From a bacterium (GTDB taxonomy: Bacteria; Bacillota; Clostridia; Christensenellales; CAG-314): a stretch of DNA of 62,222 bases. The position numbers were made by a program, and so were the translations under genes. How positions within the stretch are numbered: position 1 is the stretch's first letter; each line of letters begins with the position of its first letter. The notes below the pieces were generated by a model, which saw nothing but the letters and a program-made list of their open reading frames with translations, was not told where the DNA came from and searched no databases. The DNA lies in the NCBI GenBank assembly GCA_963619835.1, contig CAVEYD010000001.1:1-62222 (forward strand). The letters run 5' to 3'. Shown piece by piece: positions 3,976 to 20,286 of the stretch.

Positions 3976-5673
3976 ATGGCTTTTGATGCACTAAGCTTAT
4001 CGGTACTGGCGGATGAATTTCGCCAAATGCTGGTGGGTGGAAAAATCACAAAAGTGTTTCAACCGGAGCGAGACGAGATTGTGCTTTTTGTCTTTAACGG
4101 CAAAAACTACAAATTGCTTATCTCGGCAAATGCCGGTGTAAACAGAATACATACTACCGCTGCAGCAACGGACAACCCTAAAACCTGTCCGTCTTTTTGC
4201 ATGCTACTTAGAAAGCATTTAACAAATGCAACCATTGATGCAGTCGAACAAATGCCTTACGAACGCGTGTTAGACTTTTTTGTTACAGTAAACGATGAGC
4301 TTGGCTACAAAAAACAAATGCACTTGATTTTTGAATTGACAGGAAAAACGTCTAACATAATTTTAACGGACGAAAATTACATTGTTGTTGACAGTATAAA
4401 ACATCTTCCGCAAGACATGGATACGGCAAGAATAATTCTTGCAGGAGTAAAATACAAGTTTTTTAGTCCACAAGACAAAATAGCTCCGTTTGACATGCCA
4501 AACGTGGAAAAACTACTTGCAAACACTTTAACTCCGCTTAGAAAGACTTTGCCGGAAAAACTTTTAGGCGTTTCGCAAAGTACGGCAAATGAAATGTTGT
4601 GGGGATTGGATGAGGACGATCACACTATTGCCAACAACATTGCCGTAGCAAATGCAATCAATAATTATCACAGCAATTTGTGTTGTAAAAACCCAACCGT
4701 ATGGCTAAAAAACGGATTTCCGCAAGAGGTTACCCCTTTTGAATACAAGTCTGTTAAAGGGGACAAATTACACTTTGCAACGTTAAATGAAGCTCACGAT
4801 AAGTACTACTTTTTGCTTGATCAAAAACAACGTTTCAACGATAAAGCGAAGTCTGTAAACACAATAGTAAAAAATGCAATTTCGCGAACGGAAAAGAAAC
4901 TTGCAATACAAAGGCAAAGTGTTCTTGATGCCAAAGACAGAGATATCTACAAAAAATACGGAGACTTGATTCTGTCGAATATTTGGAAAATAAAGCGAAA
5001 CGACGAGCAACTGATTTGCGATGACTACTTTAACGGAAAAACGGCAAACATTCCGCTTGACAAACAATTAAGTCCACAACAAAATGCACAAGCATACTAC
5101 AAAAAATACCGCAAACTTAAGTCGTCCGCCGAACATAACACAAAACTTGTTGAAGAAAACACAAAACTACTGGAATATCTTGTTACCATAAAAGAAAATT
5201 TGAAATTTTGCACAGACGAAAACGACCTAAACGACGTGCGCAACGAATTGGTGTTACTTGGTTTAATTAAAGAAAAGCAAACAAAAAAACCACAAAAGGA
5301 ACTTCCGTCAAAACCTTTGCACTACATTATTGACGGATTTGATGTGTACGTTGGCAAAAACAACTCTCAAAATGACAAGGTTACTTTTAAAATTGCCAAA
5401 AATGGGGATTTGTGGTTACACACACAAAAAGTACATTCTTCGCACGTGGTAATTTGCTCAAACGGAGGGGAAATTTCCGATCACACAATTGTTACCGCGA
5501 GCGAAATTTGTGCCTATTTTTCGCAAGCGACAAGCGGCAGTAAGATTGCCGTAGATTACACCGACAAGCTAAATGTTAAAAAACCGCCTAAAGCACCTCT
5601 CGGCTTTGTTGTATATAACACATACAATACAATTTTGGTCGATCCTAACATTCACATTGAATTGCAAAAATAA
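3976..5673 (+). CDS. rqcH: NFACT-family ribosome quality-control protein (RqcH / FbpA-like)
   Basis: 565 aa. NFACT-N-like N-terminus (FDALSLSVLADEF..GGKITKVFQPERDEIVLF), a central coiled coil, and a C-terminal GKNNSQNDKVTF...DLWLHTQKVHSSHVVI block typical of the NFACT-R/DUF814 region. Confidence 0.8.
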   Translation: MAFDALSLSVLADEFRQMLVGGKITKVFQPERDEIVLFVFNGKNYKLLISANAGVNRIHTTAAATDNPKTCPSFCMLLRKHLTNATIDAVEQMPYERVLDFFVTVNDELGYKKQMHLIFELTGKTSNIILTDENYIVVDSIKHLPQDMDTARIILAGVKYKFFSPQDKIAPFDMPNVEKLLANTLTPLRKTLPEKLLGVSQSTANEMLWGLDEDDHTIANNIAVANAINNYHSNLCCKNPTVWLKNGFPQEVTPFEYKSVKGDKLHFATLNEAHDKYYFLLDQKQRFNDKAKSVNTIVKNAISRTEKKLAIQRQSVLDAKDRDIYKKYGDLILSNIWKIKRNDEQLICDDYFNGKTANIPLDKQLSPQQNAQAYYKKYRKLKSSAEHNTKLVEENTKLLEYLVTIKENLKFCTDENDLNDVRNELVLLGLIKEKQTKKPQKELPSKPLHYIIDGFDVYVGKNNSQNDKVTFKIAKNGDLWLHTQKVHSSHVVICSNGGEISDHTIVTASEICAYFSQATSGSKIAVDYTDKLNVKKPPKAPLGFVVYNTYNTILVDPNIHIELQK

Positions 5674-5987: not shown

Positions 5988-6863
5988 TTAGTCGGAATTG
6001 ACTTCGAAGAAGACGGACAAATCAAACGTAAACGAAACACCTTGCAACGTTTGGAATTCGTCCAAAGTTGAGATGCCAAAGTTTTTGCCACTTGCCGAGA
6101 TAAGCGTGTTGTACTCGTCGTAAGACAACATTTTGAATTGCAACCAATAGTCTTGAACATTGACTATACGGTTTGATCCGGCTTCGTTTTCCTTTGTTTG
6201 TTCGTCCAAACCGAGAATAACATCATTGTCGATAACGGAAATTTGAGTAAAGCTTGTGTTTCCGTCAGAATCGGCATCGCCTAAACCTTCGTAAAGATAA
6301 CACCACTCTTCCGGTTGCGTAGTTGCCGTATCCGAGCTAAGTCTTGTTTCGTTTTCCACCTTAACGACTCGCATCGCAAACACAGAAAAAAGTTTTGCCT
6401 GTTCTGCCGTAAGGGTTGCGTCCGAAAGACGTATCGCAATGTCGTTTTTTGTGTCCCCCTTGTTGACAAGGCTAATCTTCATAGTGAAAGTTTGCGTAGG
6501 CAAAATAGATGTTAAAAAGTCTGACAAATGTATGCTTTCGATGGTTTGTCCGGCAATATCTGCTTTGGCTTCAGTCATTTTTTTGAAATCGAAATAGCGG
6601 GTTTCCTTGTAATATTCCGGCTTTTCGTGAGTTTCCGGTACTGCTTCGGGCGTGTCAGAGTCGGTAAGCAAATTTGGAACGCCGTTTATACTGGAGTCTT
6701 TTGCAGTGTAAAAGTAAACTTCGGAATTTACTCTTGCAATTTGGAAAGACATTGTGCCGCCCCTATCGGACATACTAAACCATGCATACACATTGACAGT
6801 AAGACAACAAGCTAAAATTACAATCATAACTATTGAACCGATAAGCGAAAATTTAGTTTTCAT
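5988..6863 (-). CDS. Secreted beta-rich protein with a SipW/TasA-type signal peptide (minor fibre/adhesin component candidate)
   Basis: 291 aa. N-terminus has a basic region, a TM segment, then VYAWFSMSD (compare TasA GGGTWAAFND). The body is T/S/D-rich. The start overlaps the upstream stop (TAATG at 6861-6865). Confidence 0.75.
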   Translation of the reverse strand: MKTKFSLIGSIVMIVILACCLTVNVYAWFSMSDRGGTMSFQIARVNSEVYFYTAKDSSINGVPNLLTDSDTPEAVPETHEKPEYYKETRYFDFKKMTEAKADIAGQTIESIHLSDFLTSILPTQTFTMKISLVNKGDTKNDIAIRLSDATLTAEQAKLFSVFAMRVVKVENETRLSSDTATTQPEEWCYLYEGLGDADSDGNTSFTQISVIDNDVILGLDEQTKENEAGSNRIVNVQDYWLQFKMLSYDEYNTLISASGKNFGISTLDEFQTLQGVSFTFDLSVFFEVNSD

Positions 6864-7633
6864 TATTCCGCCTCCTTCGGTGCAAGTACGATGCCATCCA
6901 GGTTTATTGTCTTTTCCGAAAGTGCATTTGTAGCCGCGCCTAAACCTTTGTACTGTGTTAAGTCGACATAAAGTCGAAACGTTACTGACATTGTAGTTTC
7001 CGTCATAGTTCCGCTTGTAATTTCACAAGTGTCCGAAACGGTAGTATCTGCCGAATAGTCAACAATAAATTTGCTGTTTGTTGTGTCTTCGGTTACAGTG
7101 CCATCTTCACTAACAGTACAAGGTACGATTTTGTAAACGCCAAGAACACTGTAAGTTTTTTCGCCTACAGTAAACGAACCTTCTTCATTGTCGTTTTGGC
7201 TGAGTCCGGAAAAATACAAGGTGTAATCCATGCCCTTGTGAGACTCGTCACAAGAGATGGTTAAAGAAATTTCAATAAACTCACCCGGGTAAAGCGAACT
7301 GTAAGAAAGCGGTCTGTAGTTGCCGTCATCGTCCTTAACAAAATCACCGTCACGATACAGATAGTAATTGTTAGAATTTTCAAAACGCTTGTAGTTACCT
7401 TCGGCAATTGTCGTGTGACTCATAACGGCTTTTGCCGTAATTTCGTCTCCGAACAACAAATATTCACGTGCGGCAGAAACTGAGATTCCGCTACCGCCAA
7501 CATCTTTGTTGGATGCAAACCATGCTTTTGTTGAAAACATAGTTATTACAATTGCAACAAACACAAACAACGTAAGTACCATGGAAGTTAGCGATGCAAC
7601 AAATTTTTTGTTTGCAAAAAGCTTTTTAATCAT
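6863..7633 (-). CDS. Secreted beta-rich protein with a SipW/TasA-type signal peptide
   Basis: 256 aa. TM segment followed by TKAWFASNKD. It contains a LYPGEFIEISLTIS segment that I read, from memory only, as TasA-like. ATGA start/stop overlap with the upstream 1098-aa gene at 7630-7633. Confidence 0.75.
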   Translation of the reverse strand: MIKKLFANKKFVASLTSMVLTLFVFVAIVITMFSTKAWFASNKDVGGSGISVSAAREYLLFGDEITAKAVMSHTTIAEGNYKRFENSNNYYLYRDGDFVKDDDGNYRPLSYSSLYPGEFIEISLTISCDESHKGMDYTLYFSGLSQNDNEEGSFTVGEKTYSVLGVYKIVPCTVSEDGTVTEDTTNSKFIVDYSADTTVSDTCEITSGTMTETTMSVTFRLYVDLTQYKGLGAATNALSEKTINLDGIVLAPKEAE

Positions 7634-10600
7634 GCGCTCACCTCCGCTGTGTCAACACGAACAACGGTAAAGTTAACGCGCAAAGTAACATTTGTTCCGC
7701 TTAACGTAAAGTTGTAATCAAGGTAAAAACGTGTTGATGTTGTTGGATCGTCGCCTTCGTAATTCCAAACAATGTTTGCATTTGAAACATATGCCGTATT
7801 ACCGCCGTAAGAATACGACGTGTTTAGCCCAAATATGTCCGGATCGGTTGAATAAGTAGTTGTACCGTCCGACGCCGTAGATGTGCTTGTAACAAACGGC
7901 ATAAAGCAGGTTACTATACTTGTGTTGCCTTTTAATTTCTTTTGATAAGCAATACTTTGCAAACTCTTGTAGTCATTGATACCACTTTGCTTTGTGTACA
8001 AAATTTCGGCAGAATCACTGCGAGTGTTGTAAACAGCAACGCCGGCTTCGGTAAGTTCGGCAAAATATTCCATGTTGACCAGTCCTTCCGAACCATAGAA
8101 CAAACCGTCAATTGTTGACGTATCAAGGTTGTCATAAACGCGAACAACGTTTAAGGAAGTTAGGTCTGTAAGAAAACTAAACGAATAAATATTGTTGTTT
8201 CCAAGGTTGATACTCTTAAGATTTTTAAGCGAGGACAGGTTTTCCAAAACAGAATCTACGGGGCTACTTGTCGATACGTTTACACCCAAACCGCAATTTT
8301 CAAGAATTAAAGTTTCAAGAGCGGACATGGATGCAATAGCCTTTATGTTCGTTTCGTAGTTTGTCCCACTAAGAGTAATTCCCGTAAGATTTAGCAATGT
8401 TGTACCTACAAGATATTTGAGTGCGCTAAAATCATTTACAGATTTTAGCATTTCACCGACTGTGGACGAACCACATGTTGTTGTGTCTTCTACACTTACG
8501 GCAATGCTCGATTTGAGCCAGTCGGTAAGAATTACAGAAGAATCTTCGCTAAATGATTCTCCGCCAAACAACGTACCGATTACCGTGTAAAGATTTTGGT
8601 CGGTAACAACACCGTCAACGGTGTTTTGTTCGGTTGCGGAATATCTTAGTATTCCCGGAATAGTGAAGCTTGTTGTAAGATATTTTGTCTTTTCGTTGTC
8701 CATGTAGGGCGTAAACATTGCATTTGTTGCGATGTGTCGATAGTTGTAAACAAACTCGATATCTTGGTTTTGACTGATTAGATTAGACGTGTCTATTGTG
8801 AATATCCACTTGGAATCGCCGTAAGTTGCAATACTCTTTACAGTAAGATTGTTAGCCGACAAATAACTGTTTAATGCCGGAACGTAAGAAACGTAGCCGT
8901 CATCATTGGTTGTAGGAGTAAGTGCAATTGTGTTTCCGTTGTAGTATAACGAAAGTGTTAGTCCGCTTGCCTGGTTCCAAATTTCATTGCCATCGGCATC
9001 ATAAGAAAGAATGTCGTAACAAACGGCAAAATCGTTGTCGGTTGAACCGCTTGCAAAAGGCATTTCAAAACTTTTTACAGTGTAACCTGCAGTCAATGAG
9101 AAAAACATTTGGTCATAGTAGTTGTAGTAAACAGGAAATTCCGAAATGTTTGTACCGGCAGTCGTTTCGCAACGAATTGGAATTTGTATGCTAACAGCTT
9201 CGTCTTCGCCTAAACCATCAATAACAAATTCACAGTTAAGTTGAACCGTTTGAACGTAGTCGAACGGGTTTTTGCCATCAACAACTTTTACGTAACCACG
9301 GGCATCGGCTGCCGAATCGTGAGTAAATGCTTGATCGCAACCAATAAGTTCGTATAGTCCGTTTGTGTCGTTTACAAGTGAGTATTTTACAGAAATTATT
9401 TTGTTGTTAACGTCGTCAGTAGCGCTGCTGCTTACCGGAGTTTGCAATTCGTAGTTTTTGAACGAAAACGTTCCGTTTTCCTGTTCGTTGGCTTCGACAG
9501 TAATTTGTCCGCCATAGTTAGCAATGGCAAAATCTTGTGCGTAAGATGCATCTGTACGAATAAGTCCGGTGTCGCTTGCGGTAACAGAATAAGCATGTGT
9601 GTCTGTTGAAGTGCCGATACCGATAGTTGCCTTTAACACAACTACTGCAGAAGTAGGCTCAAACACTGTTACATTTTCTTTTACCGTCATTGTGTCGGTA
9701 ACTTCGGACTTCATTGTAGAATCCGAATAGGTGTTGTAAGTAAGAGATATTGTTGTACCATTTGCAACAAATGAGGACGGAAGTTGAATAGAACGTGAAA
9801 TCACGTAAGAATAGGATGTTGTTCCGTCTTCGGCTGTTACAAGTTGATAGTACTTGTACATGTAGGAGTTGAGTAGCGACTTGCTTGCCGACATCAACTG
9901 CGTTTGATCTTGCGGATTTACAATGTGCAAGCAGAAATCCGATGTTCCTATTGTTTCGCTTGCGCCATCGGCAATTTTGCTGACAGTTACAGTTAGCGTT
10001 ACCGTTTGTATTGAGCTTTGCGGTGTTACGTTGCCGCTATTTGACAAAACATCGGCGTTGCTTGACGAATAAGAGATTGTTACGTCATCGTAGCCTTTTA
10101 CGTAAAGAGGTAAATCAAGGTCGCCAAACACAAATGCACATGCTTCCGCCGTGGTAGAATCGCCACTTAAGCAAAATTTTGTTGCAAGAAACAAGTTTGA
10201 ATTGAAAGAAGTTTCGGTAAGTGCCGAAACACTTTCGTAGTTTTGCATTTCGGGAAGAGTGTCGGGGTAGTTGACAACTTTTTTGGCAACAAGTCGAAGT
10301 GCGTTGTAAGCCGTAACAAAATTGTTGTTTGAAACATCCACGCAGTAATCTTCGGCAGTAAGGCTGTCACCTTTTAGGTTTTCAAACGAAACACTTTCTA
10401 AAATGTTTTTAGAATAGGGTGTGTCGTAATAGATTTTGCCAATTTTTGCAACACTACCTTCTGCACTGTCGTCGGCAATTTTTTCGTCAACAATCACTGT
10501 GCCGTTGGACAAAATTGTGTTGCCGTGGTAAGTGTGTGAAAAAGCAAGCTCGTTGCCGTCAAGATACAACTTGTTTCCGTTGAGATTGAGATGAACGTCG

Positions 10601-10926
10601 GAATTAAATTCAATGTCGGCATCCAAAGTGATGTCATTTTGAAAAACAAGTATGTAGCGGTTAGCCGAATCGGAAACACTACTGTTATCGTTGTTGATAC
10701 CGGTAACAACTTGACTTTCGTCAATGGTTGTTGTGCTTGCGCCAACGGAGTATGCCCACAAATCGTCAAAAGATGATACGGCTTTTTCGGTTGCCTTGCC
10801 CGTTACTTGTCCGTTGATGTTTTTAGAAAGTTCGGAGGTAAAATAAGCATAGGCCGAAACAGTCGTTGTTAAAGTGAATGCAACGATAAGAACGATTAAA
10901 ACAATTTTTTTTGAAATTGCTTTCAT
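7630..10926 (-). CDS. Giant secreted protein (1098 aa) with a SipW-type N-terminus and a C-terminal leucine-rich-repeat region
   Basis: N-terminus has a TM segment then AYAYFTSELS. The body is T/S/N/Y-rich. The LRR-like stretch reads LNLTGITLSG...LETLILENCGL...LKNLKSINLGNNNIYSFSFLTDLTSLNVVRVYDN. AAGGAGG RBS. No LPXTG motif and no C-terminal TM segment seen. Confidence 0.85.
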   Translation of the reverse strand: MKAISKKIVLIVLIVAFTLTTTVSAYAYFTSELSKNINGQVTGKATEKAVSSFDDLWAYSVGASTTTIDESQVVTGINNDNSSVSDSANRYILVFQNDITLDADIEFNSDVHLNLNGNKLYLDGNELAFSHTYHGNTILSNGTVIVDEKIADDSAEGSVAKIGKIYYDTPYSKNILESVSFENLKGDSLTAEDYCVDVSNNNFVTAYNALRLVAKKVVNYPDTLPEMQNYESVSALTETSFNSNLFLATKFCLSGDSTTAEACAFVFGDLDLPLYVKGYDDVTISYSSSNADVLSNSGNVTPQSSIQTVTLTVTVSKIADGASETIGTSDFCLHIVNPQDQTQLMSASKSLLNSYMYKYYQLVTAEDGTTSYSYVISRSIQLPSSFVANGTTISLTYNTYSDSTMKSEVTDTMTVKENVTVFEPTSAVVVLKATIGIGTSTDTHAYSVTASDTGLIRTDASYAQDFAIANYGGQITVEANEQENGTFSFKNYELQTPVSSSATDDVNNKIISVKYSLVNDTNGLYELIGCDQAFTHDSAADARGYVKVVDGKNPFDYVQTVQLNCEFVIDGLGEDEAVSIQIPIRCETTAGTNISEFPVYYNYYDQMFFSLTAGYTVKSFEMPFASGSTDNDFAVCYDILSYDADGNEIWNQASGLTLSLYYNGNTIALTPTTNDDGYVSYVPALNSYLSANNLTVKSIATYGDSKWIFTIDTSNLISQNQDIEFVYNYRHIATNAMFTPYMDNEKTKYLTTSFTIPGILRYSATEQNTVDGVVTDQNLYTVIGTLFGGESFSEDSSVILTDWLKSSIAVSVEDTTTCGSSTVGEMLKSVNDFSALKYLVGTTLLNLTGITLSGTNYETNIKAIASMSALETLILENCGLGVNVSTSSPVDSVLENLSSLKNLKSINLGNNNIYSFSFLTDLTSLNVVRVYDNLDTSTIDGLFYGSEGLVNMEYFAELTEAGVAVYNTRSDSAEILYTKQSGINDYKSLQSIAYQKKLKGNTSIVTCFMPFVTSTSTASDGTTTYSTDPDIFGLNTSYSYGGNTAYVSNANIVWNYEGDDPTTSTRFYLDYNFTLSGTNVTLRVNFTVVRVDTAEVSA

Positions 10927-11149
10927 TGTATTTTACCTCCTTGTAAGATTTTTTAGTGAAATGCTTTGTTTTGTTAAAAGAATTTTTGTTTTTTTAAGCA
11001 AACTGCTTTTGTTTGTTTTGGCAAACTACTTTTTTAGCGTGACACTTTAGTGATTTTGAAACTGCTTTGTTTTTTATTTTTAGCTTTTCAACTTTTTGTA
11101 GCAGTTTTAAGTTTTTACGTTAGATTGCATTTAACAAACAACAATGTAA

Positions 11150-14100
11150 CTAAATTGAAACGGTTACAGAGTAGTGACGTTCGTCAAACAAAGTGCCGTC
11201 TTCGTTGATTACGCGAGCAACAAGCTCAACCACTTCGGAGCCACCGGTTCCGCTGTAGTAATTAGAATCTGATGCAACGTAACGAACGTTGATAAACTTG
11301 GAAACCCCGTCCAAAACAAGATTTTGACCGCCTGTTGATTCGTTTACTTCGTCAAACGTGGTTATGATTTTCGGTTTGTCGAATGAAACGTTGCCGAGTC
11401 CGCCCATCGATTTGTAGTAATAAACCCCGGTCGTTGAATTTACTGTAAGTTCAAATAAGCCGTTTGCATAGTACTGAGAGTTCTCCGGAGCATCTAGTCC
11501 GGCTATGTTGACGTACATGATTTTACCTACAGAGTAAGTTCCGCTGACGGAATCCCAAATTGCTTCTTGCACTGCATCGTTGCTTGTTACTGTAACAAAC
11601 TCTTTACGAGCATTCGGCAGGTTGTCATGTTCGAAATAGAACATGCCATCGTCACCTACCAACAAACGATACACATAAGTTTTGGTGTAAGTGTGTCCGT
11701 TGACGGTTTTACTTGTGCCATTGTAGCAATAGTAAGTGCCGTAGTAGTTGCCAAACAAAACGTCTTTTAGGTGAGTGTTTGCTTCAGCCAAAATTGCTTC
11801 CATGTTGAAGTTGCTACTTGCAACAGCAACCGAATATTCGTTTAGCGTGTAGGCTGTGCCTGTAAATTTACGTCTAAAACATTGGTTTTCAACGTAGTAG
11901 TAAGCAAGGGCATTGCCTTCAACGTAATAGGAACCTCTTTGAGTTGAACCTGTGTACATGTAAAGGCTGTAGTTTGAGTCGCTTGCAAGAGTTTCGGCAG
12001 TGCTTAGTGCCGTCTTTATATCATCTGCGGAAGAAAGCACAGTTACGTAATCGTGGTAGTTAGCGGACGAAAAGTCCGAACTTGTTGTTGTGTCTTCTCC
12101 GTCAAAATCAATTTGGCTTGTACTTAAACCATCAAGGTAACTTACTGCCTGTGAATAAACGCTTTCCCATGTTGTGCCGGTGTAAGAACGCGAACCGACT
12201 GTTGCCGTAAATGTGTCGTCAGAATAGAAGTTGCCGTTAGAGTCCATGTTGCTGTAAGTTGGGTAAGACGAACCATTGTAACTAAAAGAAAACGACTCCG
12301 TAATTCTTGTTAAGCTTGTTGATCCCCACCCTCTTGATGTTGAATAGTAGTACGTTTCGTAAGTGCGAGATTGACTTATTTTTATATCTATGTAGTTTGC
12401 AGTGCTGCCTGCTTCGGCCTTTACAAAACGTTTAACTCCGGCACCGTCAATGTAGTACAACACACTTTGAGACTGACTTACAAAATATCTGCAAGTAGAA
12501 GTAGCTGTCATCTTTGTGGTAATTTGGTAAAAAGAATAGATCCTTACTGTATTGTCGCCAATAGTAATATTTCTCCTTCTACTATTACTATAAACTTGTT
12601 TGGATGTTCCGCCTACCTTTGAAGCATTTGTTTCAATATTGTTAGTTGTCATGCTGTAGGACGAGTAATCCGGGGAAGTAATCTCTTGCGATTTTGATTG
12701 AAGTTCGGTTGAGCGATATTCTGCAGTTTGTACGTCGGTCCAATCGATATCGCTTTCGGCCAGGCTTGTGGACGAATTTCCCGCAACGGTGTACGCCTGT
12801 TGAAGGACGTATTGACCACCCGAGTACACCACTTTGTAAACCGTGTTTGCTTTGTAGGTTGTGCCGTTGTAAGAAACGTCTTGCTTAAAAATGTAGTAGT
12901 TGCTTAACAACTTGTTCATTTCGTCGGCAGATGTAATTGACGTGTAGCTATCCGAACCGGCATCGTTTACAATGTAACCGGGGTTGCCACTGTTGACGTA
13001 CCATTGAATATCCTTGGCACCGCTACCGGCATCAACCGAAGTTGTTACAAGCAAGTACTTGCTGTTGACTTCCGTAAGTTCCTTAAGGAAACGAAGTTCG
13101 TCCGAAGTGGATGAGCGAGATGCTGTGTAAGGCGAACGATTGCCGTCATCAGTATAGTAGATTTGTGCGGATGGACTGTTGACCTTGATGTTGTCCAAAA
13201 CATAAGTTAGGTACACACCTTTGACGTTTACATCGGTTACGTCTAAGTAAGAGATTTTTTTGATGTCTACATTAAGAATGTCACCTATTGTAGTTACACC
13301 GGGATTGTAAGAAAAGTCCAATTTGGTAACTTCCGCCAAACGCGAAATGTTGGCAAGATCGAATTTGATGTTGCCTGTTGAGCAAGCTTGCATTACAAAT
13401 TCGTTAAGTTTGTTTCCGCTTGTGCTGTCCGCATCCATTTTGGTAACACGGTTGAAAAAGTTGCCAAGTGAACTTGTGGTTAAAAATGCAGGGTGCTTTA
13501 CTAAACCGTCTTCGCACAATCCGTAAACTCGAATTGCCTTTAGCCCTGTAAAGTAGGTGATACCTGCAGAAGAAAAGTCGAGTGCGGAAATTTCCGGAAC
13601 GTTGTAGTTTGTAAGTGCCGACGAGTAGTTGCCTTCCGACGAACGAAGTTTATTGTAAACTGCGTTAATCAAAATTCCTGCGCCATCGTCGTTTAAGTAA
13701 GTGGGAACAACGCAACTACTTAGAAATGTTTTGGCAAAAGTTTTACCTGCCGAGACGGAAACAGTTCCGTACCAAACAGCGATAATACACTGTGCTTCGT
13801 AATCAGAAATATACTCAGTGTCGTCTTCTTGATAGACTTCTTGTCGGTAATACTTGGAATTTGTGTAATTGGTTGAGGTGGGCGTTGCCCAATTGTCGGG
13901 ATTTGATGACCAGTCAAGCTTGGTGCTTGAATTGTCACTCGAACCATCCATAGCAATGTTGTAAGAACCTATTGCTCCCAAGTCCGGCGGTGATTTGGGA
14001 TACTGGCCTCCGGCATCTTTGAAGTCCTTTTCGTTTGTTGCCCACTGGAAAACTTCGGTGTACTTAAAGTAATTTTCACCAATAGAGTTTGCGGCAGTTA

Positions 14101-16927
14101 CGGCAGCAGTCAAAACTGCTTGATAGTCCGAAATAACGTGCAAGCCGTTGCCATAACTGTCGGTTGGCGTTTCGGTTGCGCTACTCCACAACGCGTTGAG
14201 CTGATCGGCATCGTCAAAGCCTACAACTTCCTTCAGAAATGCCTTGATTACTGCAGCTTCGGTTTCGTTCATGTATTCTTTACCGTCTGCCTTTGCACTA
14301 CTTGTTGATGTGTAAGTTGTACCAAACGAGAAAGGTAAATTGTCTGTGGCCGAGCCCGTTGCCCATGTTAGAAGCATGGCAAGATTGTAAGCGACTTGGT
14401 GCGAATTGCTTGAAGACGAACTTCCGCCTACACTAAACGTTAGAGACTCTACAAGAGCGGCATCACGAACAAGAATGTAGTCTTTTGTTGTGTTGGTAAC
14501 CGTGCTTGTACCTGTGTAGCCTGTTGTTGAATCTGAGCCGTCTACAGTTACGGACGGAAGCAAGCTTACGCGCGAAGCCGTTTCGCTATCGGCAACGTCA
14601 ACTACTTGTTGAGCCGTTTGATACTTGACAGTGTTAAACACACTGTAGTTGGCAAATCCGTTTTCGTCACACTTGATTACGCCCGGAGCATTTACGTACA
14701 GAATACGATAAGCACCTTCGGTTGCATCGCCTTCTGCCAAAGCATGCACTCTAATGGGCAAGCTTGTCTCGTTGTAACCAAACAGTGACGGATCGACATA
14801 AATATGAGTTTTAGATTCGCCGTCGACTGTTTCTACTTGTGCATCGGTGATGGCATTTGTAGCCGATTCACTTGCTTTGTAAGGCTCGTAACTAAGTGCA
14901 ATTGTTTGATAAACGTTGTCTAAGTAGAAATCGCCCGATTCGTACTTGCGACCATAGGTTGCGCGAGTATCAATTAAGTTTTGTAAAATGTCTACTTCGG
15001 ACAACTCCTTTTCAACATAGGTAAAAGCAAGTTCGTACAACTCTTGGTTGTTACCCGGTTTTATGATAACGTTGATTGTTTCTTCAACCGGTTCGGTGTC
15101 GCCCTTAAACAAACCGGAAACGGTAATTTGTGCAAACGTGTAGAACGTTGCTTGATTGAGGAACACACACATTCCGTCTTGATCGCCTGTGTCGTCTACC
15201 GAGATAAAGTTGTAACCACTGTTTACACGATAAGTAAGACTTGTTAAGCCGATATCTTTGTAAGCATCCCATGTGCGTTTTGGCGTAGCATCATCGTTGG
15301 AAATCATTGTGTAATCTGTACGGTAGTCTTGCGTGCCATCGATTGAAGGCAACTTGAAACGCGCCGTAAGATTTGTGGCATCGCTGTTTTTATCAACAAC
15401 CGTAAGGGTGATTGGCGATAATTGTGCAACAAGATACTTGAATTTGATTTCTTTAGATTGACTTGTAACTTTGAATGTAAAGCTTGTTGTGTAAACCTGT
15501 CCGTTTATGGTAATTTTTGCGTAAAGTGTAACTTCAGTGTTTTGCTTTAACGTGTCGGCAAGTTTACCATCTGCAGAAATACTGTTTTCGTCCGAGCTTG
15601 TCCACTCGATGGAAACGTTTTTATCTTCGATTCGCTTAGGTAAAAATACATTGTAAGTGATGGCTTCGGCATTTGAATTGTTGGGAATGTGCTTAAGCTC
15701 GTTTGTAAGCAAACTTGCAAAAATCTCATCGTTGCCATTGCCGATAATTTGAATTTCTTGTACAAAAGAATTGTCGCCTGAGCCGATTTTAACTTGTGCA
15801 ACACTTGTTTTTGAAACAGTGTTTGCAGTAACCATAGCACCGCTTACACTGCACTCGCCTTCAACCGAACTTGTGCCGATTGACGAAGCATAAAAACTAA
15901 GTGCGCCAAAAATATTGAGAGACGATCCGCTTTGTATTCCGCCGATAACATTTTGTGCAATGCGAGTTTTGAGAAGGCCAACTACACTTGCAGAATCGTA
16001 GGAATTTAACGTCACTTTTTCTGCATAAAGACTGCCAACGTTAACAGATTTGTTGCTGTTGTAAAAATCCTCAATATTTAAGTAGGTAGATTCTCCGTTT
16101 AGGACGATGCCGGCAGTACCATCAATTGACGTGTAATTGCAAACACTTGAGGTTGTGATGCCGTACTCACCTTCGCCGCTGAGTGTCAAGTTTGCGTTTA
16201 ACGTAAGCTTGTTTCCGTTTAAGTCGATATTTGCAGGATAAGCAACTTCTTTAGCGGTAGACAAGACAACATCATTTGCCAAAACGATTGTCGTTTTTGC
16301 CGTGCTACTGTTGAGCAAGCCTGTGTTGATATCGTTTATTGCGCTGATTAGTTCGTCTTCGGTTGAAACAAAAATATATTTTACGTAATCGGCATTTTGT
16401 ACGTAAGTGGTAACTTCTACATTAAACGGTGTGTTTGTAAGCGTGCTTGCAATGTGAAGTTCCAAGGACAACGTGTGTGTTGCCGTTGTGCCGCCGTCCT
16501 TTGCCATGGCTTTGTAATCGCCAAAGCTACTGCTTCCGTTTTGCACTTCGGCAAGAGTGCCGATAAATTCTCCGTCAAGATATGCCAGAACAGACGAGGA
16601 CAAATTTTGAAGTTGTTCTTCGGTAAGAGTTGTTGTTGACGACTTTACGACAAGTCCAAAATTGTAAACTATGTTTGCCTTGGTTTTGTTGGTGACAGTA
16701 AGAGTGATGTCTTTCTTTTCGCCTGCAGTAGCAAACGAAACATCGGTTGAGCTGACGTCAAGCGACAAAACACCGCTATCGGTCAACTTGTCTGTGTTTC
16801 CGTCGATGGAAGCATCCGTACGGAATGAGAACAAGACAACGGCAAAAGCCACGCTTGCTGTAAGCGTGATGCACAAAACAATTATTATCGCAATTTTAAG
16901 CGACTTGTTAAGTAGCAAATTCTTCAT
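11150..16927 (-). CDS. Giant secreted protein (1925 aa) with a TasA-like N-terminal module and an internal LRR region
   Basis: N-terminus has a TM segment then AFAVVLFSFRTDAS, followed by a ~170-aa module (GEKKDITLTVTNKTKANIVYNF...). The LRR-like stretch reads LDFSSAGITYFTGLKAIRVYGL...VTKLDFSYNPGVTTIGDILNVDIKKISYLDVTDVNV. AAGGAGA RBS. First gene downstream of the riboswitch at 16958-17060. Confidence 0.85.
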   Translation of the reverse strand: MKNLLLNKSLKIAIIIVLCITLTASVAFAVVLFSFRTDASIDGNTDKLTDSGVLSLDVSSTDVSFATAGEKKDITLTVTNKTKANIVYNFGLVVKSSTTTLTEEQLQNLSSSVLAYLDGEFIGTLAEVQNGSSSFGDYKAMAKDGGTTATHTLSLELHIASTLTNTPFNVEVTTYVQNADYVKYIFVSTEDELISAINDINTGLLNSSTAKTTIVLANDVVLSTAKEVAYPANIDLNGNKLTLNANLTLSGEGEYGITTSSVCNYTSIDGTAGIVLNGESTYLNIEDFYNSNKSVNVGSLYAEKVTLNSYDSASVVGLLKTRIAQNVIGGIQSGSSLNIFGALSFYASSIGTSSVEGECSVSGAMVTANTVSKTSVAQVKIGSGDNSFVQEIQIIGNGNDEIFASLLTNELKHIPNNSNAEAITYNVFLPKRIEDKNVSIEWTSSDENSISADGKLADTLKQNTEVTLYAKITINGQVYTTSFTFKVTSQSKEIKFKYLVAQLSPITLTVVDKNSDATNLTARFKLPSIDGTQDYRTDYTMISNDDATPKRTWDAYKDIGLTSLTYRVNSGYNFISVDDTGDQDGMCVFLNQATFYTFAQITVSGLFKGDTEPVEETINVIIKPGNNQELYELAFTYVEKELSEVDILQNLIDTRATYGRKYESGDFYLDNVYQTIALSYEPYKASESATNAITDAQVETVDGESKTHIYVDPSLFGYNETSLPIRVHALAEGDATEGAYRILYVNAPGVIKCDENGFANYSVFNTVKYQTAQQVVDVADSETASRVSLLPSVTVDGSDSTTGYTGTSTVTNTTKDYILVRDAALVESLTFSVGGSSSSSNSHQVAYNLAMLLTWATGSATDNLPFSFGTTYTSTSSAKADGKEYMNETEAAVIKAFLKEVVGFDDADQLNALWSSATETPTDSYGNGLHVISDYQAVLTAAVTAANSIGENYFKYTEVFQWATNEKDFKDAGGQYPKSPPDLGAIGSYNIAMDGSSDNSSTKLDWSSNPDNWATPTSTNYTNSKYYRQEVYQEDDTEYISDYEAQCIIAVWYGTVSVSAGKTFAKTFLSSCVVPTYLNDDGAGILINAVYNKLRSSEGNYSSALTNYNVPEISALDFSSAGITYFTGLKAIRVYGLCEDGLVKHPAFLTTSSLGNFFNRVTKMDADSTSGNKLNEFVMQACSTGNIKFDLANISRLAEVTKLDFSYNPGVTTIGDILNVDIKKISYLDVTDVNVKGVYLTYVLDNIKVNSPSAQIYYTDDGNRSPYTASRSSTSDELRFLKELTEVNSKYLLVTTSVDAGSGAKDIQWYVNSGNPGYIVNDAGSDSYTSITSADEMNKLLSNYYIFKQDVSYNGTTYKANTVYKVVYSGGQYVLQQAYTVAGNSSTSLAESDIDWTDVQTAEYRSTELQSKSQEITSPDYSSYSMTTNNIETNASKVGGTSKQVYSNSRRRNITIGDNTVRIYSFYQITTKMTATSTCRYFVSQSQSVLYYIDGAGVKRFVKAEAGSTANYIDIKISQSRTYETYYYSTSRGWGSTSLTRITESFSFSYNGSSYPTYSNMDSNGNFYSDDTFTATVGSRSYTGTTWESVYSQAVSYLDGLSTSQIDFDGEDTTTSSDFSSANYHDYVTVLSSADDIKTALSTAETLASDSNYSLYMYTGSTQRGSYYVEGNALAYYYVENQCFRRKFTGTAYTLNEYSVAVASSNFNMEAILAEANTHLKDVLFGNYYGTYYCYNGTSKTVNGHTYTKTYVYRLLVGDDGMFYFEHDNLPNARKEFVTVTSNDAVQEAIWDSVSGTYSVGKIMYVNIAGLDAPENSQYYANGLFELTVNSTTGVYYYKSMGGLGNVSFDKPKIITTFDEVNESTGGQNLVLDGVSKFINVRYVASDSNYYSGTGGSEVVELVARVINEDGTLFDERHYSVTVSI

Positions 16928-16957
16928 TGCCGTCTCCTTGAAAAAATCTTGTTAGAA

Positions 16958-17060
16958 TAAAAAATGCCAGACTCCCTTTGAATTGAGGTAATCCGGCAAC
17001 TGGCTGACTCGTAGGAGAGTCCCTATAGCTTTGCGTAATAGCCTTGCGACTATTTTGCTA
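16958..17060 (-). promoter_or_regulatory. c-di-GMP-I (GEMM-I)-like riboswitch candidate R1 in the 5' leader of the giant-adhesin operon
   Basis: Minus-strand read: UAGCAAAAUAGUC-GCAA-GGCUAUU-ACGCAAAGCUAUAGGGACUC-UCCUAC-GAGUCAGCCAGUUGCCGG. It has a 7-bp hairpin capped by a GNRA loop, plus the ACGCAAAGC and CAGCC.GUUGCC blocks that are hallmarks of GEMM-I. GGGAGUCUGGC plus U6 (16959-16976) follows and can pair with the aptamer GCCAG / GACUC segments. The fold of this expression platform is unresolved. Confidence 0.7.
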
Positions 17061-17104
17061 TTATCAAATTAACTTTGACACTATATTTATTTAATTCTTA
17101 ATAT

Positions 17105-17133
17105 ATTATGCAATAATATATTTTTTTTGTCAA
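17105..17133 (-). promoter_or_regulatory. Sigma-A-type promoter for R1 and the adhesin operon
   Basis: Minus strand: TTGACA (17128-17133), 17-nt spacer, CATAAT (17105-17110). It lies about 40 nt upstream of the aptamer. Confidence 0.6.
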
Positions 17134-19578: not shown

Positions 19579-20286
19579 CTATTTGTTGTCGTTAGGTAAG
19601 TTGCTTTCGGCACCGGTTTGTTCGGTCGGTGTCTCGTTGTTGTTAAGTCCTTCGCGTTTAAGACGTTCAACTTCTTGTTGAACAAGCATGTCCATTTGTT
19701 TTTGCTTTTCGTCTTTCTGCTGTTCGTTGACATCGTCCTTTAACGAACGAACGACGTCCGGGATGTAAATAAGAGCCATTGATGCGACAAAGAACACACT
19801 TAACCCGGCAATCCCTGCCCAAGAAGAGAAAAGACGGCCGAGAAAAGTAAGCACAGGCAAGTTGCACTTGTACACTGCTACTACGTCGCCTGTTGCGACT
19901 CCGCCTTCGCTGTTCCACGAATCTTCGTAAGTGTTGTTGTCACCCTTTGTTTTGTAGTAACCGTCAACCGAAACATCGTTTATTACACGGTGAGTAATTA
20001 GTTGATTGTACACAGCCATGGACTCATCTTTACAAATAAACGTTATTACCGTGCCTTTAGATATATTTTGCCCATCGGTTTCCTTGACCAAAATAAAGCT
20101 TTTGGTGTTTATTGTCGGTTCCATGCTTCCGGTTTCTACCCACAAAAGCGAATAGCCGAAAACAAATGACGGACGTCCGTTTTTTTTGTTGGAAATAAGT
20201 TTTACAAATACGGCTACAAGCACGATTGCAACAATTATCCACATAATAACAGACACTATTTTGTGTTTAGGTTTTGTTTGACTCAT
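19579..20286 (-). CDS. sipW: ER/archaeal-type signal peptidase I (SipW-like), paralogue 1
   Basis: 235 aa. N-terminal TM segment, ETGSMEPT (Ser box), ITHRVI (His box), TKGDNN box, an extra C-terminal TM segment and a charged tail. The start lies 6 nt after the stop of the 1171-aa gene. Confidence 0.85.
   Translation of the reverse strand: MSQTKPKHKIVSVIMWIIVAIVLVAVFVKLISNKKNGRPSFVFGYSLLWVETGSMEPTINTKSFILVKETDGQNISKGTVITFICKDESMAVYNQLITHRVINDVSVDGYYKTKGDNNTYEDSWNSEGGVATGDVVAVYKCNLPVLTFLGRLFSSWAGIAGLSVFFVASMALIYIPDVVRSLKDDVNEQQKDEKQKQMDMLVQQEVERLKREGLNNNETPTEQTGAESNLPNDNK

What the first reader, a model, noticed from the sequence alone, without database searches (positions are those of the whole stretch)
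7630..16927. Two giant (1098 and 1925 aa) LRR-containing proteins that appear to use a SipW/TasA-type signal peptide and lack any recognisable anchor
SipW-type signal peptides are known from small amyloid-like or fibre subunits. Here they head proteins of 1098 and 1925 aa. The larger one begins with a ~170-aa module resembling the small TasA-like proteins of the same locus, as if a fibre-subunit domain were fused to a giant T/S/N/Y-rich passenger with an LRR block. Neither protein has LPXTG, a C-terminal TM segment, or SLH- or choline-binding-type repeats that I can see. Attachment could therefore occur by donor-strand or fibre incorporation through the TasA-like N-domain. The four genes are translationally coupled (ATGA at 7630-7633, TAATG at 6861-6865).
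Basis: partly seen in the sequence, partly recalled or inferred. Interest (0 to 1): 0.6.

Follow-up and report, generated by a model that had tools for sequence, protein, structure and literature searches.

The report
Riboswitch-controlled giant adhesin four-gene cassette
Two giant adhesin-like proteins and two small partner proteins form a conserved operon, switched by the biofilm signal c-di-GMP, in sortase-free gut Clostridia; all four carry the kind of signal peptide cut by a TasA-type (SipW) peptidase, but the claimed TasA-like fold at the start of the larger giant could not be shown.

Summary
The ORFs are real: 1925 aa (G1), 1098 aa (G2), 256 aa (S1) and 291 aa (S2). They form a cassette kept in this order in all 16 related loci. 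A c-di-GMP-I riboswitch sits in front of G1 here and in 10 of 12 scanned loci.

All four proteins have one N-terminal hydrophobic segment ending in an invariant Ala followed by aromatic residues (YA|YFTS, KA|WFAS, YA|WFSM, FA|VVLFSF). The membrane-spanning part varies, while the junction and mature N-terminus are conserved. This fits cleaved SipW-type substrates.

Two SipW-type peptidases lie just upstream, inside a CoCoPALM (McrBC-like) locus that co-occurs with the cassette in 11 of 13 genomes. The genome has no sortase, and neither giant has LPXTG or a C-terminal TM segment.

The G2 model contains an internalin-like LRR. No LRR could be confirmed in G1.

G1's first ~150 mature residues form a beta-sandwich found almost only at the N-terminus of 1000-3000-aa proteins (124 clusters). 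It shows no significant profile similarity to S1, S2 or the 300-aa protein, and Foldseek did not retrieve TasA.

Attachment by donor strands remains an inference. Verdict: an undescribed variant of SipW-dependent surface-fibre and adhesin systems.

The parts
17105..17133 (-). Promoter-like site TTGACA-17-CATAAT in front of the leader
   Evidence: Consensus scan, 11 of 12 matches. This is a consensus match only.
16992..17069 (-). c-di-GMP-I riboswitch aptamer in the leader of G1
   Evidence: Rfam RF01051, 57.1 bits against a gathering score of 35. The same element precedes the cassette in L001, L002, L003, L005, L008, L009, L010, L012 and L042.
16955..16998 (-). Terminator-like hairpin (GCCGGAUU...AGUCUGGC) plus U-tract. 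Its 5' arm overlaps the 3' end of the aptamer.
   Evidence: RNAfold MFE structure and sequence. The reading as a likely ON switch is inferred, not tested.
11150..16927 (-). G1, 1925-aa secreted giant protein
   Evidence: ORF and translation. 87 full-length homologues at 38-51 % identity.
16841..16927 (-). G1 residues 1-29: signal peptide with predicted cleavage after the invariant A29 (AFA|VVLFSF)
   Evidence: A29 is invariant in 21 diverse homologues. The h-region is variable and the junction conserved.
16388..16840 (-). G1 residues 30-180: conserved N-terminal strand (VVLFSFRxDG..GNTD) and a family-specific beta-sandwich domain
   Evidence: In the AF2 model (pLDDT 80.5) residues 34-49 are disordered and 53-178 form a sandwich. 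A profile search finds the domain at the N-terminus of 124 clusters of mostly giant proteins.
15446..16315 (-). G1 residues 205-494: module shared with G2, ending in an aBig_2 domain (residues 416-489)
   Evidence: hhalign G2 85-342 versus G1 205-494, probability 93.8 %, E 1.8e-7. Pfam PF20578, E 1.4e-9.
10927..11149 (-). 223-nt A-rich G1-G2 spacer with repeated AAACAAAGCAGTTT-like units. No terminator; AAGGAGG lies before the G2 start.
   Evidence: Sequence and scan.
7630..10926 (-). G2, 1098-aa adhesin-like protein
   Evidence: ORF and translation. 16 homologues. AF2 model with pLDDT 75.6.
10792..10926 (-). G2 residues 1-45: signal peptide (SAYA|YFTSE) and a free N-terminal segment. There is no beta-sandwich N-domain.
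   Evidence: A27 and F29 are invariant. Residues 1-44 have pLDDT below 50 in the model. The motif is conserved in the family.
7867..8529 (-). G2 residues ~800-1020: internalin-like LRR, followed by a C-terminal Ig-like domain
   Evidence: Strand/helix repeat in the model. Foldseek InlB/InlF/InlH probability 1.00, E 6e-7 to 4e-5. Sequence evidence is weak.
6863..7633 (-). S1, 256-aa small secreted partner. Its mature N-terminal strand WFAxNKxVxAxGM is shared with the 300-aa protein of the CoCoPALM locus.
   Evidence: Alignment of 12 orthologues. hhalign of the 300-aa family against S1 over the first 26 mature residues: probability 88.9 %, E 2.4e-6.
5988..6863 (-). S2, 291-aa small secreted partner. 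The mature N-terminal segment ARINSEVYFY is its most conserved window.
   Evidence: Alignment and conservation scan.
19579..20286 (-). SipW-type (archaeal/ER-type) signal peptidase 1, the candidate processing enzyme
   Evidence: NF046067, E 4e-25; TIGR02228 79 bits, over its cut-off.
25982..26932 (-). Diverged SipW-like peptidase 2
   Evidence: NF046067, E 4e-11.
27055..27957 (-). 300-aa secreted protein (T300) of the CoCoPALM locus, the candidate fibre subunit sharing S1's N-terminal strand
   Evidence: Translation, orthologue alignment and hhalign. Homologues lie next to SipW2 in 7 of 11 genomes.

Best explanation
G1, G2, S1 and S2 form one conserved operon encoding a c-di-GMP-induced, sortase-independent surface adhesion apparatus.

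Shown:
- A c-di-GMP-I riboswitch precedes the operon.
- The four genes keep their order in every related locus.
- All four products have a Sec-type N-terminus with a variable hydrophobic core, an invariant Ala at -1, and a conserved aromatic-rich mature N-terminus.
- The G2 model is a string of Ig-like beta-sandwiches with an internalin-like LRR.
- G1 starts with a family-specific beta-sandwich and then shares a module with G2.
- SipW-type peptidases and a CoCoPALM locus co-occur with the cassette.

Inferred:
- High c-di-GMP relieves the leader terminator.
- The four proteins are exported by Sec and cut by the SipW-type peptidases.
- Their exposed N-terminal strands then dock non-covalently into partner beta-sandwiches (G1's N-domain, S1, S2 and/or the 300-aa protein), as in TasA-superfamily fibres.
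- G2 has a strand but no acceptor domain, so it would occupy a terminal position, like TapA in the TasA system.
- S1 shares its strand with the 300-aa protein and would link the giants to that protein's polymer.
- The whole structure would be held at the membrane by a not-yet-cleaved subunit, as proposed for BsaA.
For: Operon and regulation:
- ORFs, overlaps and the lack of a terminator between the genes.
- Riboswitch in the window at 57 bits and upstream of the cassette in 10 of the 12 other loci scanned.
- The terminator arm overlaps the aptamer's 3' end.

Cassette conservation:
- The order large-large-S1-S2 is kept in L001-L013, L042 and L043, even at 25-30 % identity.

Cleavable SipW-style N-termini:
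- Invariant A29 in G1, A27/F29 in G2, A37/W38 in S1 and W28 in S2.
- h-region windows rank 79-93 % (poorly conserved), whereas junction windows rank 11-22 %. The S2 mature N-terminus ranks first.
- Distant G1-family members carry the canonical YA-x-F-[TS] motif, and P0142 hits Peptidase_M73 positions 10-75 at E 2.4e-4.

Peptidase and partners:
- SipW1 and SipW2 lie in the window.
- TIGR02228 scores over its cut-off in 11 of 11 cassette genomes.
- A CoCoPALM McrB- or McrC-like gene is present in 11 of 13 cassette genomes, against roughly 2 of 13 cassette-free genomes of the same genus.

Free N-terminal strands:
- Low pLDDT for G1 residues 34-49 and G2 residues 1-44 next to well-folded domains.
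- The N-terminal strand is shared between S1 and the 300-aa family.

Adhesin character:
- Foldseek matches to internalins and Ig-domain strings.

No alternative anchor:
-.

Precedents:
- TasA donor-strand exchange and TapA as a strand donor (PMC9674648).
- BsaA model with membrane retention before SipW cleavage (PMC11580942).
- Predicted tip proteins in TasA-superfamily loci (bioRxiv 10.64898/2026.01.04.697558).
Against: - No window protein reaches any TasA/camelysin or SipW-cognate HMM.
- Foldseek does not link G1's N-domain to TasA, AbpA or thread subunits, and no profile links it to S1, S2 or the 300-aa protein.
- S1 and S2 were not modelled, so their acceptor role is a guess.
- No multimer prediction could be run.
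- In other genomes the cassette is not next to a SipW gene.
- A LepB-type peptidase exists in the genome and could do the cleavage.
- The hydrophobic segments are 22-25 residues long, which is also compatible with uncleaved membrane anchors.
Confidence: 0.5

Rival explanations
1. The N-terminal hydrophobic segments are uncleaved signal-anchors. G1, G2, S1 and S2 stay in the membrane as type II proteins, and the giants reach through the wall as stalks. The conserved junction would be a juxtamembrane interaction motif, and no fibre would be involved.
For: The hydrophobic stretches are 22-25 residues long, which is TM length. AF2 draws one continuous helix (residues 8-34) across the putative site in G1. 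No other anchor exists and there is no sortase. The cassette is not adjacent to SipW in most genomes.
Against: Ala at -1 is invariant, with a small or aliphatic residue at -3, in all four families. This is the signature of a peptidase site and is not needed in a TM anchor. The helix core is the least conserved part. The junction matches the motif of known cleaved SipW substrates.
Confidence: 0.2
2. The proteins are ordinary Sec substrates cut by the housekeeping LepB-type peptidase. They act as free or loosely wall-associated matrix proteins and adhesins. The SipW-like look of the junction and the adjacency to CoCoPALM in this genome would be coincidental.
For: A bacterial-type SPase I is encoded in the genome. 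The sites obey the general -3/-1 rule. No SipW-cognate HMM hit was obtained. The cassette lies away from SipW in other genomes.
Against: Aromatic F/W/Y residues at +1/+2 and a strongly conserved mature N-terminus are not expected for generic secreted proteins. The cassette co-occurs with CoCoPALM/SipW in 11 of 13 genomes, although both are rare in the genus: the cassette is in 3 of 47 species. S1 shares its N-terminal strand with the SipW-linked 300-aa protein.
Confidence: 0.2
3. The proteins are type IV pilin-like subunits whose hydrophobic N-terminal helix is kept and forms a filament core.
For: A weak profile hit of the G1 N-terminus to the Sulfolobus Aap pilin, PDB 8q30, at E 0.077 (entry identified through PMC11178815).
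Against: The hit is not significant and rests on the hydrophobic helix. There is no class III signal (no short leader ending in G/A before the helix). No PilB/PilC-type genes lie in the locus. 1000-3000-aa pilins are unknown.
Confidence: 0.02

Closest known systems
Bacillus subtilis tapA-sipW-tasA (TasA fibres; donor-strand exchange, PMC9674648)
   Same: A dedicated archaeal/ER-type signal peptidase is present. Substrates have an A|aromatic-F-x junction and a conserved mature N-terminal strand. An accessory protein (TapA) is proposed to donate a strand without being a fibre subunit, as proposed here for G2. Neither system uses sortase.
   Different: No Peptidase_M73/TasA HMM hit, and no TasA match by Foldseek for G1's N-domain. 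The passengers are 1098 and 1925 aa rather than about 26 kDa. Control is by a c-di-GMP riboswitch instead of SinR. The peptidases sit in a separate McrBC-like (CoCoPALM) locus.
Clostridium perfringens sipW-bsaA-bsaB-bsaC operon (PMC11580942)
   Same: A clostridial SipW-linked operon that combines small TasA-like proteins with a larger non-fibre passenger (BsaC, vWA, ~70 kDa). The polymer is held at the membrane and lacks LPXTG.
   Different: No sequence relationship was detected. The giants here are 15-25 times larger than BsaA and carry LRR/Ig modules. No isopeptide motif was examined. The gene order and regulation differ.
[quoted passage not shown]
   Same: The cassette lies directly downstream of such a locus here: SipW x2, a membrane McrB-like GTPase and a McrC-like 1171-aa protein. 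It co-occurs with one in 11 of 13 carrier genomes.
   Different: The paper names the class but does not describe giant adhesins or this cassette. In most genomes the cassette is unlinked. It has its own promoter and riboswitch.
TasA-superfamily loci with predicted tip and minor subunits (AbpX, AbpA, Tafi; bioRxiv 10.64898/2026.01.04.697558)
   Same: The concept is the same: a donor-strand fibre locus with a dedicated SPase I and separate tip/adhesin proteins.
   Different: Those tips are associated with recognisable TasA-superfamily subunits. Here no subunit could be assigned to the superfamily by sequence or fold.
Listeria internalins (InlB, InlF, InlH)
   Same: The G2 model contains an LRR followed by an Ig-like domain that Foldseek matches to internalin domains with probability 1.00.
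   Different: Sequence similarity is marginal (E 0.03-0.3). Internalins are anchored by LPXTG or GW modules, which are absent here. The G2 LRR is C-terminal, after about 750 residues of Ig-like domains.

Membership tests
SipW-cognate signal peptide class (as captured by the first ~50 positions of Pfam PF12389 / NCBIfam TIGR04088) | Sec-type n- and h-regions ending in small-x-Ala, followed by aromatic/hydrophobic-F/W-[STN] | tested here: met
   G2 SAYA|YFTS, S1 STKA|WFAS, S2 NVYA|WFSM, T300 STYA|WFSM. G1 has a derived form, VAFA|VVLFSF. The -1 Ala is invariant in all families. Bona fide examples in the same genome read GGTFA|LFTD.
SipW-cognate signal peptide class | Significant HMM match | tested here: not met
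   No NCBIfam hit for the four N-termini even at E<=10. A PF12389 six-frame search of the genome hits three other genes but none in the cassette. Only a distant G1-family member, P0142, reaches 21.5 bits against a cut-off of 22.5.
SipW-cognate signal peptide class | Cognate archaeal/ER-type signal peptidase encoded nearby or in the genome | tested here: met
   SipW1 lies 2.6 kb upstream and SipW2 is in the same locus. TIGR02228 is over its cut-off in 11 of 11 cassette genomes.
SipW-cognate signal peptide class | Cleavage by SipW shown experimentally | not testable with these tools
   Needs N-terminal mass spectrometry in wild type and sipW mutants.
TasA/camelysin family and TasA superfamily (jelly-roll subunit polymerised by an N-terminal donor strand) | Sequence-profile membership (PF12389 body, or a link to TasA/AbpA/thread sequences) | tested here: not met
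   Pfam and NCBIfam are negative for G1, G2, S1, S2 and T300. Profiles A1, A3 and A4 against PDB sequences do not find TasA.
TasA/camelysin family and TasA superfamily | TasA-like jelly-roll fold of the G1 N-domain | tested here: inconclusive
   The model is a beta-sandwich. Foldseek returns generic jelly rolls (phage lambda gpJ C-terminal domain, plant-virus capsids, Ena) at TM 0.33 or less, with no TasA-superfamily entry in the top 50. The model included the TM helix, and no coordinates were available for a direct superposition.
TasA/camelysin family and TasA superfamily | N-terminal donor strand that completes a neighbour's sheet | not testable with these tools
   Only indirect signs are available: conserved, alternating hydrophobic N-terminal segments that are disordered in the monomer models. 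No multimer prediction was available.
   BLASTP E>0.6. hhalign with 21- and 105-sequence profiles gives probability below 10 % outside the signal peptide.
Leucine-rich repeat (internalin-like) proteins | LRR solenoid in G2 | tested here: met
   An AF2 strand/helix repeat of about 30-residue period at residues ~800-1020, with pLDDT 85-93 over 800-940. Foldseek InlB/InlF/InlH probability 1.00. Sequence evidence is below threshold.
Leucine-rich repeat (internalin-like) proteins | LRR solenoid in G1 | tested here: not met
   No Pfam or PDB-profile hit. hhalign of G1 1080-1300 against the G2 LRR gives probability 4.7 %. Only LRR-like spacing visible by eye at about 1110-1250. This region was not modelled.
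Sortase-anchored LPXTG surface proteins | C-terminal LPXTG, hydrophobic segment and charged tail, plus a sortase in the genome | tested here: not met
   No motif and no C-terminal TM segment. PF04203 is absent from the 97.9 %-complete genome.
c-di-GMP-I riboswitch-controlled operon | RF01051 aptamer over the gathering score in the 5' leader | tested here: met
   57.1 bits in the window. Conserved in 10 of the 12 other loci scanned. The ON/OFF sense is inferred only.
CoCoPALM locus component | Conserved linkage with the McrB-like GTPase, McrC-like protein and SipW | tested here: inconclusive
   Adjacent here. Co-occurs in 11 of 13 carrier genomes but usually on another contig or 35-40 kb away.

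The most novel reading that the evidence does not exclude
The cassette is a plug-in tip complex for a GTPase-assisted Gram-positive fibre.

S1 carries the same donor strand as the CoCoPALM 300-aa subunit, so it caps or nucleates that polymer. S1 and S2 in turn accept the strands of G1 and G2. This would give a sortase-free, chaperone-usher-like ordered assembly: shaft, adaptor, then two giant adhesins.

Production would be gated twice by c-di-GMP, with one riboswitch for the shaft operon and one for the tip operon. G1's N-domain would then define a new family of acceptor/donor modules that tags more than 100 lineages of 1000-3000-aa proteins for fibre incorporation.
Probability: 0.2. Interest if true: 0.75.

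Novelty: new variant of a known kind. Interest (0 to 1): 0.5.

Why it matters
Gut Clostridia of this group have tiny genomes (1.3 Mb) and no sortase, yet this one invests about 10 kb in two giant adhesin-like proteins under direct c-di-GMP control. If the N-terminal strands do dock into partner domains, this would be a general sortase-independent way of mounting very large adhesins on Gram-positive cells. It would also give the so far purely bioinformatic CoCoPALM class a concrete cargo.

Two defined, testable units come out of this work. One is the G1 N-domain family (124 clusters, almost always at the N-terminus of giants). The other is the strictly ordered four-gene cassette.

If instead the proteins are simply membrane-anchored or released, the finding reduces to an unannotated family of c-di-GMP-regulated adhesins in uncultured gut bacteria. 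That would be useful for annotation but not surprising.

Tried and rejected
- Pairwise BLASTP of G1 against S1 and S2, and of S1 against S2: nothing.
- hhalign of the G1 N-domain (21 and 105 sequences) against S1, S2 and the 300-aa family: only the signal peptide or a non-significant PGE/PGD strand aligned.
- HMM searches of PDB sequences with profiles of the N-domain, S1, S2, G2 and full-length G1: no TasA-superfamily hit. Only weak hits were found: internalin for G2, mannuronan epimerase beta-helix for G1 1697-1831 (E 0.01), and a Sulfolobus Aap pilin via the TM helix.
- NCBIfam on the isolated 60-residue N-termini: no SipW-cognate model hit.
- Type IV pilin reading: rejected, because there is no class III signal and no pilus ATPase or platform genes.
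- Looking for stand-alone versions of the G1 N-domain: the sub-400-aa hits are truncated fragments ending inside the next module.
- Names from public sources for G1/G2 homologues: none.
- LRR in G1 through similarity to the G2 LRR: not found.

Full report
**What is there.**
On the minus strand lie four ORFs: 11150-16927 (G1, 1925 aa), 7630-10926 (G2, 1098 aa), 6863-7633 (S1, 256 aa) and 5988-6863 (S2, 291 aa). G2/S1 overlap by ATGA and S1/S2 by TAATG, each with a GGAGG upstream. G1 and G2 are separated by a 223-nt A-rich spacer with no terminator and a good ribosome-binding site, so they are probably co-transcribed but not coupled.

Upstream of G1 there is a near-consensus promoter, a c-di-GMP-I aptamer (RF01051, 57 bits) and a hairpin plus U-tract whose 5' arm overlaps the 3' end of the aptamer. 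I read this as a probable ON switch; that reading is inference.

Further upstream lie an EAL protein, a SipW-type peptidase, a 1171-aa protein, a membrane McrB-like protein, a second diverged SipW, a 300-aa secreted protein (T300) and a second riboswitch. Earlier notes from this scan identify that part as a CoCoPALM locus. The eLife paper only names the class.

**The cassette is a conserved unit.**
- G1 has 87 homologues, nearly all full-length, at 38-51 % identity. G2 has 16 and S1 has 23. None carries a name.
- In all 16 fetched loci (L001-L013, L042, L043) the order is large-large-S1-S2. This holds even at 25-30 % identity and in a compact version of 827+925+254+284 aa.
- The riboswitch precedes G1 in L001, L002, L003, L005, L008, L009, L010, L012 and L042. 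In the other two scanned loci (L004, L043) none was detected upstream of the cassette.
- Carriers are uncultured gut and rumen Clostridia MAGs.
- The cassette is rare. It occurs in 3 of 47 species of the window's genus and in 1 of 151 genomes sampled across its order.
- In other genomes it is not next to SipW. However, every carrier that was searched has TIGR02228 peptidases (11 of 11). Eleven of 13 carriers have the CoCoPALM McrB- or McrC-like genes, with the same McrC-SipW1-EAL order. Among cassette-free genomes of the genus, only about 2 of 13 do.
- The McrB-like GTPase is 72-78 % identical between genomes whose giants are 40-50 % identical.

**N-termini.**
- Each of the four proteins, and T300, has one hydrophobic segment at the N-terminus and none elsewhere.
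- The segment ends in small-x-Ala followed by aromatic or hydrophobic residues: G1 VAFA|VVLFSFRTD, G2 SAYA|YFTSE, S1 STKA|WFASNK, S2 NVYA|WFSMSD, T300 STYA|WFSMNK.
- The Ala is invariant in every family. The hydrophobic core is among the least conserved windows. The junction is in the top 11-22 %, and in S2 the mature N-terminus is the best-conserved window of the protein. That pattern is what a cleaved signal peptide followed by a functional N-terminus gives. It argues against a mere TM anchor.
- Three proteins elsewhere in the genome carry the textbook form GGTFA|LFTD and are the ones the Peptidase_M73 model recognises. It recognises them through its first ~47 positions only.
- Distant members of the G1 family have the same textbook form (VYAAFT, VYALFTS, VFAAFSD). 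One of them scores 21.5 bits on Peptidase_M73, against a cut-off of 22.5.
- No window protein reaches any such model.
- The assignment to SipW therefore rests on motif, conservation pattern and gene co-occurrence, not on an HMM. A LepB-type peptidase is also present.

**The giants.**
- Pfam sees only one aBig_2 domain in each giant.
- G2 residues 85-342 and G1 residues 205-494 are homologous (hhalign 93.8 %, E 1.8e-7). At the N-terminus, G2 therefore looks like G1 without the first domain.
- The full-length G2 model (pLDDT 75.6) has a disordered N-terminal 44 residues, a series of beta-sandwich domains, a strand/helix solenoid at about 800-1020 and a C-terminal sandwich. Foldseek matches internalin B/F/H (LRR plus Ig-like domain) with probability 1.00, and also strings of Ig domains. 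The LRR in G2 is thus confirmed structurally, although sequence evidence alone was marginal.
- For G1 no LRR could be shown. Residues 200-1925 were not modelled.

**The N-domain of G1.**
- The model (21-sequence alignment, pLDDT 80.5) has a TM helix at 8-34, a disordered segment at 34-49 that contains the invariant LFSFR..GNTD, and a well-predicted sandwich at 53-178.
- A profile of the mature domain, searched against 1.8 billion representative proteins, finds 124 clusters. The domain always begins at residue 25-60 of the protein, and the proteins are mostly 1000-3050 aa. The short hits are truncated fragments.
- It is therefore a dedicated N-terminal module of giant secreted proteins, not a fibre subunit that was fused once.
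- It is not detectably related to S1, S2 or T300, nor to TasA by sequence. Foldseek returns only generic jelly rolls at low TM-scores.
- A beta-sandwich preceded by a conserved, unstructured, alternately hydrophobic strand is still compatible with donor-strand chemistry.

**Small proteins.**
S1 and S2 are unrelated to each other by profile. S1 and the T300 family share their first 26 mature residues, WF[SA]xNKxVxAxGMxVxA (hhalign 88.9 %, E 2.4e-6), and nothing else. This shared strand is the only direct molecular link found between the cassette and the CoCoPALM locus.

**Anchoring.**
There is no LPXTG, no C-terminal TM segment and no wall-binding repeat. The 97.9 %-complete genome has no sortase. 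Published models offer two sortase-free solutions. One is strand donation by an accessory protein, as for TapA (PMC9674648). The other is retention of the polymer at the membrane by the not-yet-cleaved newest subunit, as for BsaA (PMC11580942). TasA-superfamily loci with separate predicted tip proteins have been described.

**Verdict.**
- The most likely reading (about 0.5) is a c-di-GMP-induced, SipW-processed, sortase-independent adhesin apparatus whose parts are joined through their N-terminal strands.
- Uncleaved signal-anchors (0.2) and ordinary secreted adhesins (0.2) remain open.
- This is a new variant of a known kind of system. Similar giant-passenger loci have been noted by other agents of this scan in other genomes, so the theme is recurrent rather than unique.

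Noticed in passing
window 10927-11149 (minus strand): The 223-nt G1-G2 spacer is very A-rich and holds three or four copies of an AAACAAAGCAGTTT-like unit. Another first-reader note reports similar CAAGTT..TTTTA cores in other intergenic regions of the locus.
   Followed up: no
own genome: C4:5953-7335, C72:339-1772, C2:42194-42808: Three further proteins (460, 477 and 204 aa) have textbook SipW-type N-termini (GGTFA|LFTD, GATFA|LFTS, GGTYA|LWST). They are the only genes of the genome that hit Pfam Peptidase_M73. The C2 gene lies about 1 kb from a third SipW-like frame at C2:43755-44087.
   Followed up: partly
own genome (whole): No sortase (PF04203) was found in a 1.30-Mb, 97.9 %-complete genome. 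All surface display in this organism must therefore be sortase-independent.
   Followed up: partly
L002 1-9103 and L043 1-4051: Divergent from the cassette lies another conserved set: one 3768-4747-aa giant plus three proteins of 258-474 aa without Pfam hits. In L043 this set has its own c-di-GMP-I riboswitch (3978-4051, minus strand).
   Followed up: no
L042 455-534, 11834-11913, 20528-20603: Three c-di-GMP-I riboswitches lie within 20 kb: before the cassette, before two GGDEF-EAL genes directly downstream of it, and before a further gene.
   Followed up: no
L013 3445-13424: In this MAG (MGYG-HGUT-04445) G1 is split into three frames and G2 into two. This is either decay or assembly error.
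   Followed up: no
window 24144-25772 and homologues: The membrane McrB-like GTPase is 72-78 % identical across genomes in which G1 and G2 are only 40-50 % identical. The motor is under much stronger constraint than the presumed cargo.
   Followed up: partly
window 20293-23808 (residues 16-200 of the 1171-aa protein): The ~170-aa repeated domain of the McrC-like protein occurs in many other large proteins of related genomes (numerous hits to residues ~20-200 only). It is therefore a common module and not specific to CoCoPALM.
   Followed up: no
G1 residues 1697-1831 (window ~11435-11839): A weak profile match (E 0.0096) to the beta-helix of alginate mannuronan C5-epimerase. This may indicate a right-handed beta-helix near the C-terminus of G1.
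   Followed up: no
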